44,512 nucleotides of DNA. It comes from Eremomyces bilateralis CBS 781.70. Lineage: Eukaryota. The stretch lies in NCBI GenBank assembly GCA_010015585.1, contig ML975165.1. The stretch is one strand, 5' to 3'. Positions 1 to 12,039 of the stretch are shown here, piece after piece. A program made the position numbers and the translations under genes. Position 1 is the first letter of the stretch; every line of letters starts with the position of its first letter. The notes below the pieces were generated by a model that did no database searches, was not told where the DNA came from, and worked only from the letters and a program-made list of their open reading frames with translations.

Positions 1-1791
1 CACTCACACACCACGCTGCATGATAAGGAGGCCCTGTACAGCGAGTTCTCCAAAGTGGATTCCAAGATTCGAATTATGGTCGCAACTGAGTCACTGGGAA
101 CGGGAGTGGACCTCTCGAATGTCATACGTGTCGTCCAATATGGATTCCCCTTGGAGCGGCTTTTAAGCGTTCTCATCCAACGGTTTGGTCGTGCAGCTAG
201 AATGGCCAGCATCAAGGGGGAGGCTGTCTTCCTGGTGGAAAGCTGGGCTGTAGGCGACAGGGTTTCATCAACAAGAGCGGCGTTCTCCAGAAGCCGGAAG
301 CAGTCGTCTTTAAGACAGCTTTCTTATACGAGCCAGCTAGCTCAGTCATGCCCCGTCGAGCCAGAAGCGGAGAGTGATGTTCCAGACCACGAAGCGGATG
401 TTGCTGTAGACGCCATTGACTATGGCGTCCCAGAAGACCAGCGCAAACGCAAAACACAGAGAGAGCGCCGGACAGAGCTGTACAATGACTGCCCAGCACT
501 ATACAATTTTGTCAATCGATCCAATTGCCTACGCCGAATCCTGATGGATTGGCTGCAAGAGAGTTTGTCAGATCCCGCATCTAAGTTGCCTCCTCCTAGA
601 CCGGACGAATGTTGTAACGCCTGCAACCCTGGCCTGACGCGGACGGTGCCTTTCCCGTGGGACATTGCTCCCAGTCTTCGGAAACCCCACGCTGGGACAG
701 CACCAGGTGCATTTTATGACCGCCTAGCCCTCTGGGGAGACAATGTTGTTAACTCGGCGCATCAGACGGCGAAGCCCGAACTTTCCGTGAAGCTATTTAC
801 TCAGAAGAGTGAGTGGATATCATTATCGACAGAATATGCCTACATCCATACAGCCGCTGAGTTGGAGGAGTTTGTGAAATCGACCTGGTTGAAAGACCAT
901 TCCGATGAACTCTTTAAGGAGTTTAATAATATCAAGTCCTACGTCGTGAGGAACTGGCCTGGAGGTAGCAGGCTAGAAACGTCACGGACGTCAGGAGCTG
1001 CAGGCCCAGTGCAGATTTCCCTTGATTATCAAGAAGTCTACAAGGGTCCAGAAGGGAGAGAGACTCACAAGGGGCAATCTTCAGTCGCGATTGAGCATCC
1101 CACTCAGCCAGAGAAACCTGTGTCCTTCTTGCGTAAGAGCGATGATTATATTTCCTCATTGGAGAAACTCATTGCTCGCGCGAGAGAGAATACAGCATTA
1201 TGCTCTCCATGTTCACCTGACCGAGCGTTGTCAGAAAGACAGCCTATGATTATTGCCGAGCAACAGTTTCGACAAAGTTCGTTGCTCGAGAGACAAGGTC
1301 CCCCTGCCACGAAGCAGATGTCCCAACAAGGAGAGCCTCAGGAAAGAAGAGTATCGACCGAAGTAAAGACTCTAATAACTCCCGATCAAGGACGAAGAGC
1401 ATCATTTTTGCGTGACCGAGAAGAGTACGCTTCCTCGCTAGAACGAATCACTGCCAACGCAAGAGAGATATCAGCCTCGTGCTCTCCTTATCTAGCTACC
1501 CAATCAGTGCCGATAGTGGTAGCAGATTCGTCATTAACATCCATTAGGTCGGTTACATCGACAAACGTAGATTGCTCCTCTGGCATATCTAGTGTTTTCG
1601 AAGACAGTGAGAATGGTTTGTCCAGCGTAAGTGGTGGCAATCAGTCGTCGAAACGTCCCGCACCGAGTGAAGGAGAAGGAGAAATGATAAAGCGGGTCGC
1701 TCTCAGCGTTTTAGACTCTAATATAAGGCGAAGTCCTCGCAGTGAAAAAGAGAAGAATAGGCGTTATTACCACGGAGAGCGGATATTATAG
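1..1791 (+). CDS. RecQ-like SF2 helicase, C-terminal part (5' truncated by window edge)
   Basis: Frame open from base 1 (HSHTTLHDKEALYSEF); motif V ATESLGTGVD, VVQYG, motif VI QRFGRAAR; Zn-binding CLRR...CCNAC; long disordered tail. Confidence 0.85.
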   Translation, partial: HSHTTLHDKEALYSEFSKVDSKIRIMVATESLGTGVDLSNVIRVVQYGFPLERLLSVLIQRFGRAARMASIKGEAVFLVESWAVGDRVSSTRAAFSRSRKQSSLRQLSYTSQLAQSCPVEPEAESDVPDHEADVAVDAIDYGVPEDQRKRKTQRERRTELYNDCPALYNFVNRSNCLRRILMDWLQESLSDPASKLPPPRPDECCNACNPGLTRTVPFPWDIAPSLRKPHAGTAPGAFYDRLALWGDNVVNSAHQTAKPELSVKLFTQKSEWISLSTEYAYIHTAAELEEFVKSTWLKDHSDELFKEFNNIKSYVVRNWPGGSRLETSRTSGAAGPVQISLDYQEVYKGPEGRETHKGQSSVAIEHPTQPEKPVSFLRKSDDYISSLEKLIARARENTALCSPCSPDRALSERQPMIIAEQQFRQSSLLERQGPPATKQMSQQGEPQERRVSTEVKTLITPDQGRRASFLRDREEYASSLERITANAREISASCSPYLATQSVPIVVADSSLTSIRSVTSTNVDCSSGISSVFEDSENGLSSVSGGNQSSKRPAPSEGEGEMIKRVALSVLDSNIRRSPRSEKEKNRRYYHGERIL

Positions 1792-1796
1792 ATGGA

Positions 1797-4537
1797 CTAC
1801 TCCGACTCGATATCCGAAGGTAAGCCCCATTCGTGGGCTTCATCTCTATCTTCCAAGGGCTGGTGACGTAGGTTAGCACAAGACTGAATACTCTACTAGA
1901 ACAAAACATACTAGTATCGCCATCATGTCGTTATCGGGATCCAGATCAGCCGTCGCTCCTCCTGTCTCGTAAGGTGGCACTATTATTTGATCTTCGTCTC
2001 TCATGACCTTGGCGTTAAATATTTCTAGCTTCTTTGTCGCCACCCTTTCGAGCCCGATCGTATGTATGTCCGGCGCTTGATGTCTGGCTTTCCTACCGCC
2101 TCTGTAAAATTTAATCGAATCGCACGCCAATTCAAATGCCAGTATATGAATATCATCCACTGGAGAGGGCACGGAATGCTTGGAGCTTTCCTTCCGCGCA
2201 AATGCTTTCTCTATCGTCTTGCGTAGGAAAACAGTGTATTCTGCTGTTAACGAGGTAGTCTTAAACAGTGCATCTAATCCGAAAGTCGACGTTCGACGGG
2301 CCCAAAGCTCTCTTTTCAGCTCCAGGTTCAGATATTCAAGGCTACGATCGACTTCTTGCCAAGTGTCCCGACAGCCATGTGGATTAACGAGGCTATTCGA
2401 GAGTATTGCGCGCCGAAGCTCCTTATCACAAGCTTTGGTGCTGGTGAGCCGTTTTAGATAGAGCATTTCGAATGCGTAGTTTGATTGTCCAGTCCCCTCG
2501 AAGTAAAAGCAACAGACACCAATGACTCGGTCGATGAGTCCTATATCTCCGTTTTTGATGCCGTACTTCAAGGTCTTGTACACAACCATTTGTTGAAGGT
2601 ATCGAGCATGACTGAGGAACTCCTCATCGACTGTATTGTTGGCATGCTTCTCCTTTGATGGTCGCCAGGCTTCCGGCCCAAATGCGGATCTGCGAACATC
2701 CTCCACTAGGTCCATGAAGCCTCTAGTATTCATGTTCTGAATTGCCTTGTCAACCTCCTCTTGATCGGAGGTATCGATGCCGTACTGCTCGAGGCGAGTA
2801 TAAAGTAGTCCAATAACTCGAGCGTCGAAACTGTGAAGCACCAGCTCTTCTAGAACCTGAAAAGCTGCACGGTCCGCTGGAATATTCTTTCGTCCCCAGA
2901 AGTTGATGTTGTGATAGAGAGTTGAAGCGTCCTGTTGCTCCATGTTTCCGTAATGTGTCTTTTGCATGAGCCATAGAAAATTCATGCGCAGGTGAAAGAG
3001 AGCAGCGACTCCTATCAGCCAGTCTTTTCTATCATACGATATAGACGCGTCGACTTGCTCAGCCTGCATAGATCGGATGAGTGAAGAGGTTTTTTGATCG
3101 CCAAACGCCAAGAACAGACGGTTGTCGAATTCTTTACTATCTAGTTGGAATTGGCGCTTGTAGATGCTCTCTATAACCTCGTAGGAGCCATCTAGAGTAC
3201 CTTCGTTGAAGAGAATCGGACCGAGCGTCTTGCTATCTGTCTTTCGAAGCTCAAGTAACTCGACGGTTGGCATAGCCGGGAATGGGATGTCGGAATTAGA
3301 GAAGATAGATTTGACCGATTTTGGATATGCTGTCCGAATCGCCTCCGCTATGAAGTAGCTGTCAATCTTGGAGGCAGTCTCGTCGTATATGGCGGCGCCG
3401 GGAGAGTAGAAAAGGTCCTCTATTGAAAGTGGAGTCTCACGGTGTAGCATCGATTTCCTTAATCCACCTGGAGGAATGTCGGCGCCTCTGAAAACTTTCC
3501 CCGTTGTTACCGAGCGCATTTCTGCATGGTTTGAAATGAGCTGGTGCTTAACACCTTCTCGATAGTCGAAATTATCGTAGACAACACAGGCGTTCAGCAG
3601 CTGGCCGTATCGACGGACCGTCCCCTACGTACGGTTAGTTGAAATCCATTCCGAGGGACGGTGACGATGCCTTCGCTTGTTCTGCCACGGTTTCAAGATG
3701 TCTGTGGACTGCCTTGTAGCCTTCACAAACCCCAAATTGGTGAAAAAGGTCGAGGACCCGACGTTTCACGCCATTGGAGTGTAGAAAGGCACCAAATACG
3801 CGGGGAAACTTGTTGCTCCCTTCCGACGCCCGAGAATAGCAGAGGATCGACGTGATTATCGCAGTCCTGTGGTTAAATTTAGAAGGATCTCGTGGTGGTC
3901 GATCTTTCCTCTCTATCTTGGGCGCCATAAGACCGTCGAGCAGTCCACATAGAAGAGGAGCATGAGTGTTAACTTGCTCATACATCCAGCCGAACCGCAA
4001 GTCGTCGAGTATGCACTCGTAGTCCTCTGGTTTCTGGCCATCTTCAGACTGGCCATCTTCAGACCGCCCCTCCCGCCCAATACTGGCCTGTAGAGACTTT
4101 TCTCGTTCGCGGTGGACCTGGTAGGCACTAAACATACCTCCGGCTTCTTCCAGCGCTTTCATTTCTTTTCTTAGTGCCTTCACGGTGACAATTCCTCCCA
4201 CACCAGACGCAGGATGTTGTCGTATTGCGTCTAGCACCTCTGGTTGAGTGTATATCGCGTCTACAAGGCGTTTGGCACGCGTCGCAGGTCGATCTCCGTA
4301 GCCGTCACCACCTTGAGTTGTTACATACACTCGGATGAACTCGGCAAGCGTCAAGTGGTGTGTTTGGGACATGTATTTGCATATGTCGTTCACTCGCTTT
4401 TCTGACGTCCATACTCGAGATCTGGCGCGTCTACGATGGACATCGGCAGTCGAAGCAGTAGTTCGTGGCTGTTCTCTGCTCTCTAGAGGCGTTGGGTTCA
4501 GTCGTACGCTGCGCCGAGAGGAGGTTCGATCTGACAT
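1797..4537 (-). CDS. DUF6589-like putative (AcademH) transposase, 3 exons (4537-3671, 3624-1912, 1859-1797), ~880 aa
   Basis: Spliced ORF is continuous; motifs VYDNF, FGDQKT, ALFHLRMN, DRSLEYLN; introns 3625-3670 (GC-AG) and 1860-1911 (GTATGT...CTAAC...CAG). Confidence 0.75.
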
Positions 4538-4701
4538 CGTCCAAAATTCACTGGGTTATCAAGAAACGATAGAGGATTCGATTGAACGAGTCAATTTTAC
4601 TGTGCGATAGCTCGTTGTGGAGGAAAACGAGGTTGATGTGATTAAATTGCTCTCATACAAACGATCTCGATTCAGGCCAAAAATCAATGACAGAATCCTC
4701 A

Positions 4702-4886
4702 GGCTATTTGGTCGAGGACCATACCAATTAGGTATAGCGCGGTTCGTTGCCTCAGGCACGACCACAATGGCCTGAGCTTGCTGAGGTAAGCTATTTGTTC
4801 GAGGAGCACATGTGACTTACCGATTAGGTATAGTCCGCTCCGGTGCCTTGGCACGACCACAAATAGCCTGAGCTTGCTGAGGTAAG
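4702..4886 (+). repeat. Two imperfect ~90-bp subterminal tandem repeat units
   Basis: Exact GCCTGAGCTTGCTGAGGTAAG at 4770-4790 and 4866-4886; ATTAGGTATAG and GGCACGACCACAA also present twice. Confidence 0.9.
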
Positions 4887-4922
4887 ATCAAGGCGATCAA
4901 CCGCAAGCCTGGCTTAGTAGTA

Positions 4923-7500
4923 CAGAGCTTCCATCGATAATTTTTATCGGGTAATCTGATACGATAATCGGTATCGCCGATACCGATTATCCTGTAATAT
5001 TACCCGATAATTCCTTAGCGCCCTGCCGCCCACCAAATGCTTCAAGTGATAGAAATCATAGAATATTATTTACGTCTCAATCACCACGTACAGCATAATG
5101 AGCTCTATATTCGATTTATCTAGTGTTTCAAATTCTCTTGAGTCTGAAAATTCAACCATTACCACCAATTCGCGCAAGAAATCCTCTCCGATCCATAAGC
5201 ATACTCGAGAGCCAAAAGACGGTGAACCAGCGTACGACAAGAACGGACATCTCCTATATTATTGCAACTACTGCACTACTACAGCGAAGAGTTCAACAGC
5301 TGGGCTTCGGCTACATCTTCAAAAAGAGCATGATATCGAGTCTCCTACGGGTATACGTCGTGCGGCAAAAATCGCTGGAGAGGAGGCAGTTGTTGAGCTA
5401 TACCAAGCTATTCTAGCAAAGGGAGGGGGCACTACGGAGATCGATACAGAGGTTCTAGAACAGGTTATCAATCAGGAAGTTCTAAAGAAAGCTATTCTGG
5501 ACTTAGTGATCGTACGACGGCTCCCCTTCTCGATTGTTCAATGGCCCGAATTCCATGCTTTCTGCTCCGCACTCAACCGGGAATCAAATACCTTTATTCC
5601 TACGTCCCCCTCTACTGTCTCAAAATGGATCACGGATTCCTTTCCGGAGGCACAAGATATCGTACGAAAAGTACTTCAATCTGCCAAAACAAAGATCCAC
5701 CTTGCTGTCGATGTCTGGACCTCTCCGAATCGACATCTTTTGCTTGCAATCTGCGCTAGCTTTGTGGACGACCAGGACCATCTCAAGAATACTTTGATTG
5801 CTCTTCGTACGATACATGACCACAGCGGCAAGGGACAGTTTGACGTCTTACTTCCTGTACTAGACGACTATGGAATTACCCAGAGTGTCGGTGCTCTTGT
5901 TGGCGACAATGCAACAACAAACGATACTCTTTGTCACGAGATAAGCCAGCATCTTTCTCTCGAGTATAAGATTTCGTGGAGTGCCACACAACAACGGATT
6001 CGCTGCCAGGGCCACATTCTCAATCTCGTCGTCCAAGCGTTTCTTTTTTCAAAAGAAGACGACGAGGATATCATGAAATCGTACGATAAAGAAGATGAAG
6101 AAGGGGAAGAATTAGGAGAGAAGGAGAAGAAGGATCGAGCGAATAATATTCGGAACAGAATGGGAGTAATGGGAAAACTCCATAATATTGTCGTACACAG
6201 CCGAGAATCAGGAGGTCGGATGAAAGAGCTTGTTAGGCTTATTGGGAGATCAATTCCTCTTGATAATCGTACGAGATGGAATAGCTGGTTTCGGATGTTC
6301 GAGGTGGCGCTTTCCGATTCTGTACGACCAGGACTTCAAAAGTATATGGAAATGTACCATGAACAGGGCTCAATTGACAAAAAGGATCTAATCAGTACTG
6401 AAGGTTGGATACAACTCCGTACGATTTGCTCATTTCTTGAAGTTTTCGATGGGGCAACTCTTTTCTTACAAGGAGACGAAGTCACGCTTGAACGGGTTCT
6501 GGAAAGTATGGACATTCTTGAAGGTTTCTTTGAAAAGACTCTGGTAAGTCGTACGATCCAAAGAAGTATTCTTTTATTAATTCTTTAGGACGAGATGAAG
6601 CAGGATAAAGCTTTGAAGCAAATTTTTACTCGAGTTCAATCTTCCTTTACAAAGTTTAAGGACTATTCCGCGAAGCTAGGGGGATCTCCATACTATGCCG
6701 CAGCGCGAATTCTCCACCCAGAGAGGCGTACGACATGGTTACAAGATAAGAACGGAGAGATTTCAACGGCGTCGCAGCAAACCCTATGGAAAGTGAAGCA
6801 ACTCTGGGGGAAATGGCGCAAAGAAATACTACCTTCAGTTGTTGCAGCAAGGTCATCCGATAAAGAAAGAGCTGGACAGTCAATTACTCAGCCGGACGAC
6901 AGAAAGCTCGATTCGTTTCAGAAGCTTCGCCGCGATTACCAGGACAGACAGCTTCGCCCACAGAGCCAGGATGAGCTTGAGAATTTCCTTGCGGAAACAC
7001 CGTCGTACGGTATCTCTAGACCATCAATCAAGTGGTGGACAGACGAAGTTCAACAACAGAGATGGCCACGGCTCTCACTCTTTGCTATTGAAATCCTTTC
7101 AATACCAGCGATGAGCGATAAGCCAGAGAGAATCTTCTCAGGCGGACGACGTAGAGTAGGATGGGAGCGCGCATCAACGAGTCCAGGGATGATTGAGAAG
7201 ACGGAGTGTATGAAGGATTGGAAGAGCCAGGGCATTTTAAAGGTAAAATTCTAGAAGAACAGATTTCCTTATCGTACGATAGTGTTTATTTAACTTAGAC
7301 TAGCATAAAGAAGAGAAGGTTTAATTCGATTATTTTCTATTTTCTATTCATAATTATAAATATCACGACGATTGTGAGGGCTGGGGTTTAAAATAACGAT
7401 ACATGCGTAAACTATCGGGTATTATTAGATAATCGGTGTCAGGAAGCCCCGATACCCGATAATCGTATCAAACCTATCAGAGCTATCGGTGGAAGCACTG
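4923..7500 (+). mobile_element. hAT-superfamily DNA transposon (Restless/Tfo1-like), apparently full length
   Basis: 17-bp TIRs CAGAGCTTCCATCGATA (4923-4939) vs revcomp CAGTGCTTCCACCGATA (7484-7500); clustered CGATAA/TATCG subterminal motifs at both ends; transposase inside. Confidence 0.92.
5098..7254 (+). CDS. hAT transposase, ~703 aa, one 45-nt intron (6544-6588)
   Basis: BED finger (CNYC...HLQKEH), LAVDVWTS, GDNATTND, RCQGHILNL, TRWNSW, hATC motif WPRLSLFAIEILSIPAMSDKPERIFS; GTAAGT...TTAG intron joins the two ORFs in frame. Confidence 0.92.
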
Positions 7501-8188
7501 CAAGTTAGTAGTTAGTACTTTAACTTAGATCTAAAACGGATGGGGAATTAATCGCACACTGAAGCCTTATGAACATCGTATCTAAATAATACTGGGAAGC
7601 TTATTCTGTATGGGTATGTATAGGCAGCCTAGGATTAATGAATCCCTTCGCATTTGAACTCCCATCAATACATCAGCCACCTTCAGTCAATTCTGATATT
7701 ATATGAATAACATTGAGTGCTACTGAACTTGCCCCCAAAAAACGGCAGTATTTTAATGCCGTATTTGAAGGGGTTTTGGCTTGGTGGAAACTCGCTCGTT
7801 TCATTGCCGTCGTTGCCGGCATTGCCCAAAAGCATTTTCTTAGGAGACGTTTGCGATTTGGTGGATCTATGGACTCGCGGAAAGTGGGTCTATAGTTAGT
7901 AGTTTGACGTTAAATGATGGTGTTGCTAAATCCCTGGGATATAGGGCTATAAACAGACTAACCCCATATCTATGGATATGAGGAAAATAAAGCATTCGGC
8001 ATTCCAGCGCCAGTCATCCTCTCATGATGTAAACCCTTCGCCTTCGTAGTCGATAGCAACCCTCTGTCTATAGGATTCTGGGTAACGGGCTATAGGGAAT
8101 CGATGCAAGGGCTGAAGTCTCATATAGACGGACCCGAATTACGTCTCGGGTGGATAAGCGAGTGCAAATAAGCCCTTTTCGTACTAGG

Positions 8189-9803
8189 TCACGTTTCCGG
8201 GGTATCGAGGGGCTTCTGAGCATAAATGATATGACTAGAGTGCGGTCAGTAACGGCCAAAACCGCCGGACGAACGGTGAGACTGACTACTTGTGGTAAAA
8301 GTACGTCGTCTTCATGTCCTCACGGAACTTCGCGTTCAGCACATCCACTTCCTTCGGATCCCAGCCCCGGAATGCCGTCAAGAGCCGCATGCTCATCGCA
8401 GCGGCCCCCTCGCGCATGGTAGTTCCGTAGTACTGGCCAACCAAACTCTTCTTCTTGTCTTTAGGCCAGCTGCCGGAGGGCACTTCGAAAACATGATTTT
8501 CCAACTTGGTGAAACCTGTAGATTTGCAGATGTCCGGGATGATGAGGGCGGGAGTTGGCGTCGCGCCATAGTAATCTCCGCATGTTTCCATCACCACATC
8601 GTGCCAGGCTTTGACGGCATTGTCGGGCAGCTTTCCTAGTTCGCCGGAGGGGGAGTAAGGACGGACGTCCCAGTCCTTGAACTCAACCCAACCACCAGGA
8701 TTGAGTTGTCTGTTAAGGTCAACTTAAATACATGGGTGCTTAGATGCGAGGGGGGGCACCGGATAGATGTTACGGGGAGAGTTACCGAAAGCACTGTTTA
8801 ATGAGCTTAGACCAATCATGGATGGAGCCGGCCAGGTATCGACAATGGACGAAATCGAATTGGCCGCGGAAATTCCATTCGTCCTCGACGTCATCGATCT
8901 CGAATTGCACATTTGGTGGGACCCTCGTCACGTTAGATGGCACTACTTGAAATTGTCAGTTAGACGCACCAGGAAGGTTGTCTTGGGCTGAGGTCGACTC
9001 CGGTAACCTGGAATATGAGTTAATAGGTAAACTAAGCATGCATTGGGGAGGGCCTATACCTTCGCACTTGGATACTTGTCACCTATTCAGGTAAGAATTA
9101 GAAGCACTCAAGACAATCTGTTCTGTACAGTCCCTTCTCACCCATATCAATTGCCCAGATTCCTGTTCCAGTTCCCACGTCGAGGATTGCTCCCGGATTC
9201 TCGCCAATCGGTGCGAGGTGAAGCTCGCCGTTCAGATGGAGTAGAGCAATATGATGATGAATATCCAGCCGGTCTAGCTCGTCATCGTCATCTGGCATGA
9301 TATATTCTGGTTCAAATCAATCAAAAGAAAGGATCATCTACTGGCAATGGTGGTCGCCTACTGCCCGACTTGTATGAGTGGTATCGGCGACCATTTTCAA
9401 ATGTGTGTTCTAGAATCGAAGACGCAAGCGAGGTGGTCTCGCTTGCTCTACGATGAAAATGTCAGTACTTCTATTGAGAGGACAGTCTGCCGGAATAGCG
9501 GACTGTGCTGAGGGCGGCTCGTAGCCTTACCCGTCGTCTCCGATCGCAGAGTCTACCTATATTCAAAATCAGAAACACATTACAACTTCGACTCGTACAA
9601 ATGGAGAGTTCAAACGCAGAAATATCGACCAATGGATGCAACCAATAATGTTGGGAAACAACAATAGCGTCGCAGATCAAAGCGATGTTGCATACCTCGG
9701 TGCCAACCTCAACGGCTACAACGTCAGCAGCCTCTTCGATGGTAGCGGTTGGCCGATCTGCCGGGGCCGCCGGAGAAGGCGATTTAGATACGGCTTCAGT
9801 CAT
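8189..9803 (-). CDS. LaeA-like/TdiE-like class I SAM-dependent methyltransferase (multi-exon)
   Basis: ENGRRYHSY, ELDRLD, LDVGTGTGIWAID, VPPNVQFEIDD, PGGWVEF, C-terminal YAQKP; ATG 9803, stop 8189-8191. Confidence 0.88.
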
Positions 9804-10248: not shown

Positions 10249-12039
10249 ATGGATGCACTTCCAGGTCTCCCTGATGGGCTGCTCGCTCGCCTGGCTTTGC
10301 TTGCTACTGTCGCCCTTGTGTCGTCCTGTGTCTGGAGTTACTTAAGGTCACCACTCCGCCATGTCCCCGGCCCGTTTTTCGCCCGTATCTCCGATCTGTG
10401 GCGGGTCGGGAGCTGGTGGACGGGCCATGCGCAACTGACGCTGATCCAACTGCACCGCCGCTTCGGGTCTGCTGTACGGCTGGGACCGAATATGATCAGT
10501 TTGAGCGATTCGAACTTGATCAACGTCGTCTACTCCAGTAAGACGCCATGGATCAAGGTGAGCATCGAAAACGATGCCTGAAGCACCTCGTGCCAAGCAA
10601 AATTGAATCTCCGAATGATCGCTGAGTAACTATTGTATAGAGCGATATGTATGCATCGAACGATGTTGTCGTCGATGGCGTCGTCACCTCCAATCTCTTC
10701 AACACGACGGATCAAGCGTGGCACACCAAGATGGTGAAGCCATTGCGCAACATTGGCACCGTTACCAAAACGCTCGCCTTCGAGCCGGCCGTGGACGAGA
10801 CGATCGAGATTTTCTGCTCCAAGCTAGACCAAATGGCGAGCGAAGGCGTCGTAGTTCCAATGGAGAAATGGTTGCTTTGGTGTAATATGCATCGCTCGTG
10901 CAGTAGAATGACGAAAGTACTTACGCCGACCCATTAGTTGCATACGACTGCCTCCATAAGCTCACCTTTGGCTATCATCGCGGCTATCTCGAGACAGGTA
11001 GCGATGTCGGGAATTTCATCAAAGACGCATATGGCGGTTTGATCTACTTTGGCTTGGTATCGTTCCCCCTTCTTCGGACGAGAATACGGCACTGACAGTT
11101 CTCCAGTGCGTGAACATGCCCTTGCTTGACCGTTTCCTGATGAAGAACCCTTTGATGAAGCCGTTTCTCGGTCCCCCGCCCTTCCTCTGGGCCTTCCAAC
11201 AAGCCTACGCTGACGTGGCCGAACGCAAGCGAAAGCACGAGGCTGAAGGCACGTCCCCCGGGTCCTCGGACTTCCTCGATCTCTTCCTCGGGGCGCGAGA
11301 TTCATTCCCCGATATCGTCAGCAACGACGACGTGGTGGTGAATTATCTCTTCGTGAACCTAGTGGCCGGGTCGGACAACACGGGGATTTCCTTGGCTGCG
11401 ATCGTCTACCATGTCTACCGCAACCCGCGGATTCTCGAGAAGCTCCGGAATGAATTGGAGGTCGAGAAGGTCAATGGTACGCTTCCTGCCTCGTATCGTG
11501 ACACAAGCCGCCTTCCATACCTTGATGCCGTCGTGCATGAGGGTTTGAGAATTCATCCTCCTATCGGACTGCCCCTCGAACGTGTCGTTCCCGCTAGTGG
11601 TTGGCAGATGCCGGACGGTGGCCCATTTATCCCGGCAGGCACGAAAGTTGGGATGAACTCATGGGTGAGCAATCGAGACGAGAAGACATTCGGTCCTGAG
11701 GATGTGGACGAATTTGTGCCGGAGCGGTGGATGCCGAGAAACGGAGAGTCGGACGAAGCGTGGAAGGGGAGGTTGGGCCGGATGAAGAGCTTGATGCTCA
11801 CATTTGGTTTTGGGACTCGGATTTGTACCGGAAAGAGTGTCGCCATGATGGAGTTGTATAAGGTCGTGGGAACTTTAGTCGGAAAATATGATGTGAGTCC
11901 CTTGTTCCTCCTCTGATAGATGGATTTCACTAATGATGTGGCACCGTAGATGACTTTTATGACACCCGAGTGGAAGATGGAGAATATATGGTTTGTGTTT
12001 CCATCAGGATTCGATGTCAAGATACAGCAAAGAAGATAA
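10249..12039 (+). CDS. Cytochrome P450 (pisatin-demethylase-like clan; multi-exon)
   Basis: N-terminal TM + PLRHVPGP; I-helix AGSDNT; ExxR (EGLR); PERW; heme motif FGFGTRICTG; last exon 11950-12039. Confidence 0.92.

What the first reader, a model, noticed from the sequence alone, without database searches (positions are those of the whole stretch)
1..4911. Apparently intact helicase + DUF6589-like transposase element (AcademH-like) in an ascomycete-type genome
Seen: an uninterrupted RecQ-like helicase C-terminus (motifs V, VI, Cys cluster) convergent with an ~880-aa protein carrying spaced acidic motifs (YDNF, GDQ, LFH, DxxxE), then subterminal repeats and a possible end (revcomp CAGGCTTGCGG, ending at 4911). 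Established: AcademH DNA transposons encode a transposase plus a RecQ-related helicase and make 9-10-bp TSDs; the helicase's role is unknown. Inference: this is a young, potentially autonomous member of a mechanistically uncharacterised transposon class that pipelines would label as two hypothetical host genes.
Basis: partly seen in the sequence, partly recalled or inferred. Interest (0 to 1): 0.75.

Follow-up and report, generated by a model that had tools for sequence, protein, structure and literature searches.

The report
Helicase transposon inserting beside E-box sites
This is a real, recently active fungal jumping gene carrying its own DNA helicase, and most copies of its family have landed 10 to 33 bases from one short promoter word (CACGTG) of the kind bound by a host transcription factor, whereas a related family in the same genome has not, which points to an undescribed way for a DNA transposon to choose its target.

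Summary
The element is real: a 6.3-kb, multicopy DNA transposon with an 880-aa DUF6589 transposase (RNase H/DDE fold; both introns seen spliced) convergent with a 940-aa RecQ-like helicase. Termini are TTACC…GGTAA and the duplication is 8 bp, not AcademH's 9-10. The copy ends at 4789 and sits inside a sister element ending at 4885. The proposed TSD belongs to a neighbouring hAT-like element. The scan already noted the 8-bp TSD and hairpin ends on other DNA of this genome.

New here: target choice. CACGTG starts within 35 nt of the duplication at 14 of 21 TSD-paired sites, and RTCACRTG at 17 of 21 (0.75% expected). None lies closer than 10 nt. A sister helicase-DUF6589 family in the same genome shows 0 of 11. 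Ends with the same 20-nt terminus in metagenomes repeat the pattern (10 of 34, conservative). The word matches Cbf1-type bHLH sites, and the host has a Cbf1 orthologue. Best reading: cut-and-paste insertion positioned by a bound host bHLH factor (inferred, about 0.5). AcademH-like; membership not established.

The parts
1..1791 (+). 3' part (residues 345-940) of the RecQ-like helicase gene: motifs V-VI, Cys cluster (C520, C548, C549, C552), HRDC-like helical region (resemblance recalled), low-complexity tail with a repeated helix
   Evidence: full 940-aa ORF in sister copy L029:6607-9426, best PDB matches RECQ1/WRN E about 2e-16; alignment
3671..4537 (-). Transposase exon 1 (289 aa, all-helical N-terminal region, no Pfam, no fold match)
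3625..3670 (-). Intron 1, 46 nt, GC..AG
   Evidence: 46-nt skip in contigs of run X3, not in DNA runs X1/X2
1912..3624 (-). Transposase exon 2: DUF6589, RNase H-like DDE core with large helical insertion; candidate triad D306, D465, E719
1860..1911 (-). Intron 2, 52 nt, GT..AG
   Evidence: 52-nt skip in run X3
1797..1859 (-). Transposase exon 3 with stop codon
4690..4789 (.). Right end of the inner (family A) element; terminus ...GAGGTAA at 4789; folds as a single-strand hairpin
   Evidence: fold z -4.35, 0 of 200 shuffles as stable
4790..4797 (+). 8-bp target duplication of the inner element (GCTATTTG); the same 8-mer precedes an A left end nested in a B-type end at L029:6119
4809..4816 (-). 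E-box GTCACATG (CATGTG on +), starting 12 nt beyond the inner element's TSD, the modal distance
4790..4885 (.). Last 96 nt of the outer (family B) element, 100% identical to family-B right ends; terminus at 4885
4886..4893 (+). 8-bp target duplication of the outer element (GATCAAGG), matched by the family-B left end at G000:C42:100335 (L058); this site has no RTCACRTG nearby
4921..7503 (+).
   Evidence: the hAT label is from recalled motifs plus a weak zf-BED hit (E 0.018)

Best explanation
A cut-and-paste DDE transposon of an AcademH-like lineage whose transpososome is positioned by a host bHLH factor bound at RTCACRTG, most likely the Cbf1 orthologue. Shown: intact spliced genes, TTA..TAA termini, 8-bp duplications, recent spread, non-autonomous derivatives, and insertion 10-33 nt from an E-box on either side of the element. 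Inferred: the transposase cuts at the ends and joins them across an 8-nt stagger. The RecQ-like helicase unwinds or remodels the fold-back ends or the joint. A contact between an element protein and the bound factor holds the complex just outside the factor's footprint, with flexible spacing. Because the ends of families B and C and one LTR-like repeat contain such words, elements pile into them, which explains the double end in this window.
For: CACGTG within 35 nt beyond the TSD at 14 of 21 paired sites; 17 occurrences in 1470 near nt against 2 in 5292 far nt. RTCACRTG at 17 of 21 against 0.75% expected genome-wide. Control family C (31% identical transposase, same genome, same 8-bp TSD): 0 of 11 sites, Fisher P 4e-4; 1 of 54 ends against 19 of 67. 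Metagenome ends with the same 20-nt terminus: 14 of 43 distinct flanks, or 10 of 34 after removing nine related flanks; 1 in 8880 far nt. Nearest distances are 10-33 and never under 10; the TSD itself has no strong consensus; left and right B ends are used equally (7 and 7). This fits a flexible tether better than rigid readout. RTCACGTGAY is enriched in the genome (228 sites against 32 for the reversed word). A Cbf1 orthologue is present (L165, E 5.6e-17). TCACGTG is a Cbf1-like in vivo footprint in Aspergillus oryzae (PMC4482085, passages). Precedent for retrotransposons: Tf1 and Sap1 (PMC5371812, passages). No bHLH-like domain was found in the element's proteins.
Against: No binding or chromatin data exist for this fungus. 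4 of 21 paired sites lack RTCACRTG, including this window's own outer insertion. 12 bHLH genes could bind E-boxes, so the factor's identity is a guess. The distances (clusters at 12, 17-18, 23-26) show no 10.5-nt helical phase. The motif and the 35-nt window were chosen after seeing the first flanks. Surviving insertions are filtered by selection. TSD length and true termini were not established for the metagenome ends, and only 14 of 62 such loci show a transposase or helicase hit. Tethering determinants were not identified.
Confidence: 0.5

Rival explanations
1. An element-encoded domain (the uncharacterised helical N-terminus of the transposase, or the helicase) reads RTCACRTG directly and delivers the ends at a distance, as target-selector proteins do in Tn7-like systems (analogy recalled).
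For: The bias is lineage-specific. Spacing may differ by subfamily: A-type ends mostly 12 nt, B-type often 23-26 nt; P 0.12 on paired sites, 0.013 with nested sites added (post hoc). Exon 1 is a conserved domain of unknown fold. One metagenome group shares a longer flank word.
Against: The word, including its 5' T preference, matches a host factor's site that is already enriched genome-wide. Spacing varies over 23 nt. A tether would also be lineage-specific.
Confidence: 0.25
2. No contact: the bound bHLH factor opens or bends chromatin and the transposase passively uses the accessible edge of its footprint.
For: Exclusion zone under 10 nt. Both families show a mild excess of another promoter-like word near their ends (YRAGGC, about 5-fold in C and 2.6-fold in A/B, post hoc), so both seem to favour open promoter DNA.
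Against: Family C shares the genome, the TSD length and the gene content, but hits CACGTG at 0 of 11 sites. The signal falls to background beyond about 60 nt.
Confidence: 0.2
3. The association is an artefact of non-independent sites, assembly or selection; the element is an ordinary AcademH copy.
For: Some targets are repeats (B ends, C ends, an LTR-like repeat), the assembly breaks inside the elements, and pairing across contigs rests on 8-nt matches.
Against: Nested A-in-B and LTR-like targets were excluded from the 21 sites (one of the 21, L026/L056, lies in a family-C end), and the printed flanks are otherwise unrelated. The five sites with both ends first seen give 5 of 5 CAYGTG (3 of 5 exact CACGTG). 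The pattern recurs in other samples.
Confidence: 0.05

Closest known systems
AcademH lineage of Academ DNA transposons (Kojima 2020, PMC7165386; paper not held, known here from passages in PMC10045372 and PMC10799480 and from recall)
   Same: DDE-type transposase plus a separate RecQ-like helicase between terminal inverted repeats; low to moderate copy number in ascomycetes; non-autonomous derivatives.
   Different: 8-bp TSD against 9 or 10 bp (PMC10045372); termini TTA..TAA, whereas the TAG..CTA ends recalled for Academ occur only in the distant family D of this genome; a target rule tied to an E-box, which I found no report of.
KolobokH (PMC9587614, passages)
   Same: Fungal DNA transposon encoding a RecQ helicase.
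   Different: Kolobok shares C/DxxH, whereas H500 here is preceded by A-L-F; Kolobok duplicates TTAA (recalled), here the 8-mers are variable; here the helicase is a separate convergent gene.
Host-factor-guided retrotransposons: Tf1 with Sap1 (PMC5371812, passages), Ty3 with TFIIIB (PDB 7q5b title; PMC5911963 listing only)
   Same: Insertion next to a site bound by a host DNA-binding protein.
   Different: Those are LTR retrotransposon integrases with tested contacts; this is a DNA transposon, the word is a bHLH E-box, and no contact is shown.
Dada (targets small-RNA genes; title seen in a reference list) and P element / Hermes transposases
   Same: Dada is a target-specific eukaryotic DNA transposon; P and Hermes are the closest solved folds (Z 9.8 and 9.0); hAT elements such as Hermes, and P, also make 8-bp TSDs (recalled).
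   Different: Dada inserts inside a conserved sequence; here the insertion point is free and the motif lies 10-33 nt away. P and Hermes carry no helicase.

Membership tests
AcademH | Transposase with an RNase H-like DDE core | tested here: met
   Model pLDDT 84.7; best matches P element transposase Z 9.8 (rmsd 4.9, 277 aligned) and Hermes Z 9.0 (rmsd 7.1, 280), then integrases; Foldseek gave no E <= 0.001 but ranked Hermes first; E719 invariant and D465 in at least 90% of 31 rows
AcademH | Transposase falls in the Academ clade | not testable with these tools
   No Repbase Academ sequences or profile available; the link DUF6589 = Academ is recalled, and DUF6589 is not mentioned in PMC10799480
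AcademH | Encodes a RecQ-related SF2 helicase | tested here: met
   940-aa ORF with DELH box; RECQ1/WRN/RecQ best matches, E about 2e-16
AcademH | Terminal inverted repeats, multicopy, flanks differ between copies | tested here: met
   76 termini with at most 1 mismatch, 0 for the reversed control; 20-nt perfect TIR plus a looser 100-nt end
AcademH | 9- or 10-bp target site duplication | tested here: not met
   8 bp at 21 of 21 independent paired sites; one 9-bp case at a repeated target (L018); none at 10; sister family C also 8 bp at 11 of 11
AcademH | TAG..CTA-type termini (recalled, not read in a paper) | tested here: inconclusive
   Families A, B, C end TTA..TAA; family D ends TAG..CTA; the defining text could not be read
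KolobokH | C/DxxH motif after the second Asp | tested here: not met
   The conserved His is in A-L-F-H
KolobokH | TTAA target duplication (recalled) | tested here: not met
   Variable 8-mers
Zisupton/KDZ | 8-bp TSD | tested here: met
   PMC12730594 passage gives 8 bp for Zisupton; 8 bp here
Zisupton/KDZ | KDZ-type transposase profile | tested here: inconclusive
   Pfam scan of the exons returned only DUF6589; no dedicated profile comparison was run
Host-factor-tethered integration (Tf1/Sap1 type) | Insertions cluster beside a host factor's binding word | tested here: met
Host-factor-tethered integration (Tf1/Sap1 type) | The factor binds the integration protein and is required for targeting | not testable with these tools
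   Needs knockout and binding assays

The most novel reading that the evidence does not exclude
A widespread fungal lineage of helicase-carrying DNA transposons docks on the host's Cbf1-type bHLH factor, possibly with its RecQ-like helicase as the adaptor between factor and transposase, and so inserts next to promoter E-boxes. Sister lineages may use other host factors. That would be a transcription-factor-guided eukaryotic DNA transposon and would give the unexplained AcademH helicase a role in target selection.
Probability: 0.3. Interest if true: 0.88.

Novelty: new variant of a known kind. Interest (0 to 1): 0.7.

Why it matters
Target choice at a distance from a specific host word is well studied for yeast retrotransposons but rarely described for eukaryotic cut-and-paste transposons, and nothing on target preference turned up for Academ elements in my searches. 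The rule is sharp enough to test directly: one intact, spliced two-gene element, one motif, one candidate host gene, and a sister family as a built-in negative control. It also gives a concrete hypothesis for the helicase's unknown role. It predicts that this lineage preferentially alters promoters of E-box-regulated genes across several fungal classes. If the determinant can be mapped, it is a natural starting point for site-directed integration tools. The work also ties DUF6589 to an RNase H/DDE fold.

Tried and rejected
1) Extending upstream of base 1: impossible, the window starts contig C17; sister copies were used instead.
2) End at 4911 and TSD GCTTAGTAG: rejected.
3) My first idea, that one composite moved as a unit to C17 and C20: dropped. 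The two outer elements are of different B types (C42/C17 autonomous type; C50/C20 2-kb type), so two separate insertions of A into the same spot fit better.
4) The neighbouring hAT-like element as a control: single copy, useless. Family D: only 6 pattern matches, two of them the ends of each of two full copies; the four ends viewed show no flank E-box in 70 nt.
5) Bridging through E-boxes inside the ends: A ends have none, and D has one inside its left end but no flank bias.
6) Structure of exon 1: pLDDT 62, best Z 3.3, uninformative. ESM Atlas gave unnamed fungal clusters only.
7) Complex prediction of the Cbf1 bHLH-zipper dimer with transposase residues 40-289: no verdict, score 0.10 against a mark of 0.34, alignment not used; not evidence either way.
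8) TSD pairing among metagenome ends: no usable pair.
9) No run is on record as RNA; X3 is RNA by guess and by its spliced contigs only. Logan contigs cannot test the 4789-4885 junction.
10) Kojima 2020 and Kojima's review were not held.
11) Horizontal transfer was not tested against host-gene controls.
12) The tree separates A/B from C and D but has long branches and no Academ reference, so it was not used for membership.
Full report
Observation. The window is the start of contig C17 of the 26.9-Mb genome G000, so nothing lies upstream in the assembly. Bases 1-1791 (+) are an open 596-aa frame with a Helicase_C hit, and the minus strand carries DUF6589 (E 9.5e-68). Contigs of run X3 skip both introns and those of DNA runs X1 and X2 do not. 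The gene is therefore transcribed and spliced, with the caveat that X3 is RNA only by guess and that the read-out covers the family, not this copy.

Proteins. A model of exon 2 (31 sequences, pLDDT 84.7) aligns best to P element transposase (Z 9.8, rmsd 4.9, 277 residues) and Hermes (Z 9.0, rmsd 7.1, 280), then to integrases; Foldseek found nothing at E <= 0.001 but ranked Hermes first. The likely triad is D306, D465, E719; E719 is invariant and D465 nearly so; D306 lies before the start of many rows. The complete helicase in a sister copy is 940 aa with a DELH box and matches RECQ1, WRN and RecQ best. Exon 1 has relatives but no known family or fold. Transposase homologues at 84-89% identity are named from Stachybotrys, Fusarium, Metarhizium and Dactylonectria, and helicase homologues from several Leotiomycetes. 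The identical database protein carries a label from a third class (classes recalled). This suggests horizontal spread but was not tested against host genes.

Ends, copies and nesting. The family has 76 termini reading TTACCTCAGC.AGCT.AGGC with at most one mismatch, and none for the reversed control. Of 79 ends recovered with a looser pattern, 8-nt reverse-complement matching gave 30 end pairs, 7 and 10 nt gave none, and 9 nt gave three, all from one site; 28 ends stayed unpaired. Leaving out the A-in-B nested pairs and an LTR-like repeated target gave 21 independent sites, all with exact 8-bp duplications. Family A is 6309 bp; four other stretches match the window at 99.8-100%. Family B is about 81-83% identical in DNA, with one full-length copy of 6016 bp (L023). 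The window's copy ends at 4789. The next 96 nt are identical to B right ends, begin with the duplication GCTATTTG, and end at 4885; the flank GATCAAGG pairs with a B left end at the tip of contig C42. So A sits inside a B element, 96 nt from its end. The same spot was hit in a 2-kb B derivative (C50/C20) and in small derivatives (L006, L010, L020). The nesting in this window rests on the assembly; contig depth over A is about 3.5 times that of the single-copy neighbour, a weak fit to three A insertions. Both A ends fold as single-strand hairpins (z -4.35 and -4.94), as earlier scan notes proposed; I did not test covariation.

Target rule. In the first flanks I noticed CACGTG at a fixed distance and then counted. 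It starts within 35 nt beyond the duplication at 14 of 21 sites, and CAYGTG/CACRTG at 18 of 21; random positions in window 7601-44512 give 1.3% and 3.1%; near flanks hold 17 in 1470 nt and far flanks 2 in 5292 nt. RTCACRTG is present at 17 of 21 against 0.75% expected from its genome count. Nearest distances are 10, 12 (five times), 17, 18 (three), 23, 24, 24, 25, 25, 26, 26, 33. The nested targets follow the rule: B right end 12, B left end 12 (a variant word), LTR-like repeat 12 (a variant word), C left end 24. The duplicated 8-mers have no strong consensus. Four sites lack RTCACRTG, including this window's outer insertion; its inner insertion has it at 12. The threshold was set after seeing data; the five sites with both ends first seen later give 5 of 5 CAYGTG, 3 exact.

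Controls. Family C is a second helicase-DUF6589 family in the same genome, about 31% identical in the transposase, with 57 termini, of which 54 were analysed (three with two mismatches were not fetched), and 8-bp duplications at 11 of 11 pairs. It has CACGTG at 0 of 11 sites (Fisher P 4e-4 against 14 of 21) and at 1 of 54 ends against 19 of 67 distinct A/B ends. A scan of metagenome contigs for the 20-nt terminus returned 62 loci, 66 exact ends, 64 with enough flank, and 43 distinct flanks. 14 of 43 have CACGTG at 10-35 nt past the first 8 nt, mostly 14-17, against 1 in 8880 far nt. Several flanks from one assembly series share a longer word and probably lie in another repeat; removing those nine leaves 10 of 34. 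Each is one side only, so about half is the most one would expect. Limits: no TSD pair was found there, and 14 of 62 loci show a transposase or helicase hit (38-46% transposase identity for most, 90% for L082).

Mechanism. Shown: a DDE-fold transposase, RecQ-like helicase, discrete ends, 8-bp duplications, recent activity, and a lineage-specific insertion zone beside an E-box. Inferred: cut-and-paste chemistry, a helicase role at the fold-back ends or the joint, and positioning by a bound host factor. RTCACRTG is the Cbf1/CDEI consensus (recalled). TCACGTG is a Cbf1-like footprint in Aspergillus oryzae (PMC4482085, passages). The perfect word is 7-fold above its reversed control in G000, and one of 12 bHLH loci is a clear Cbf1 orthologue. 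An exclusion zone under 10 nt, loose spacing and no side preference fit a tether (0.5). Direct readout by an element protein (0.25) is favoured by a possible subfamily difference in spacing (P 0.12, or 0.013 with nested sites). Passive use of chromatin opened by the factor (0.2) struggles with family C. Artefact or selection is unlikely (0.05).

Relation to known systems. It works like AcademH, a helicase-bearing Academ lineage that is low-copy in fungi (PMC10799480, passages). AcademH makes 9- or 10-bp duplications (PMC10045372, passage), which this element does not, and Academ placement could not be tested, so I call it AcademH-like and do not file it as a member. KolobokH fails on motif and duplication (PMC9587614, passages). 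The defining paper (PMC7165386) and Kojima's review were not held; their figures and supplements may bear on TSD length and targets. Other papers seen as passages only: PMC12730594, PMC5751038, PMC4455052, PMC8290104, PMC12210899, PMC5371812, PMC13017519. No supplements were opened. Eight full-text searches (listings only, apart from the papers named) showed no report of E-box- or Cbf1-adjacent insertion by a DNA transposon or of any Academ target preference; the library lacks most subscription journals. Within this scan, the 8-bp TSD and hairpin ends were noted before on other pieces of this genome, and no note held all my target-motif words.

Verdict. A real, young, probably autonomous AcademH-like transposon with corrected ends. 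The element alone would rate about 0.4. The E-box-adjacent targeting, with an internal negative control and outside replication, raises it to 0.7: a new variant of a known kind with a directly testable mechanism.

Noticed in passing
window 4921-7503: Single-copy hAT-like element (zf-BED-like N-terminus, long ORF, intron, palindromic subterminal region at 4944-5010) inserted 35 nt from the family-B end, with an imperfect 8-bp duplication.
   Followed up: partly
family C ends, L020, L026-L028, L033, L035, L036, L123-L161: Second helicase-DUF6589 family with 57 termini and 8-bp TSDs; near flanks show about 5-fold excess of YRAGGC-like words (14 of 54 ends near, 2 of 54 far; post hoc), possibly its own target word.
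   Followed up: partly
L031:3365-9415 and L034:2459-8815: Family D, about 30% identical transposase, TAG..CTA termini, an E-box inside its left end, stops inside the DUF6589 match; closer to the recalled Academ termini.
   Followed up: partly
L014, L018, L020:1724, L050, L057, L059: Repeated insertions about 24 nt inside a multicopy sequence starting TGTTGG (LTR-like), with a CAGGTGAC word at 12-13 nt; L014 is flanked by the same side inverted on both ends, suggesting rearrangement between copies; L018 has a 9-bp duplication.
   Followed up: partly
L007, L008, L009, L019: Small derivatives with a tandem 92-nt duplication of one end; no E-box at the internal junction.
   Followed up: no
L105:1-150: Metagenome contig where a right end and a left end face each other across only 7-8 nt: tandem insertion, circle junction or assembly loop.
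   Followed up: no
window about 1140-1200, 1420-1480 and 1690-1735 (helicase tail): The tail carries a twice-repeated helix (EY.SSL.R.IA.AR) kept in most close homologues and a terminal motif resembling a destruction box next to a basic stretch (resemblance recalled).
   Followed up: no
L064, L068, L070, L089, L090, L092, L096, L110, L113: Flanks in one metagenome assembly series share a longer word (A-run, TAC, then GTCAYGTG) and often a palindromic first 8-10 nt; may be another repeat's end or an extended target.
   Followed up: partly
L003 (G000:C50:1-5772): Divergent A-like copy (92% DNA identity) whose helicase part is mostly missing and replaced by other sequence containing an inverted repeat.
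   Followed up: no
window 8150-9650 and 10250-12000: Host genes that look by eye like a methyltransferase (minus strand) and a cytochrome P450 (plus strand); not searched.
   Followed up: no
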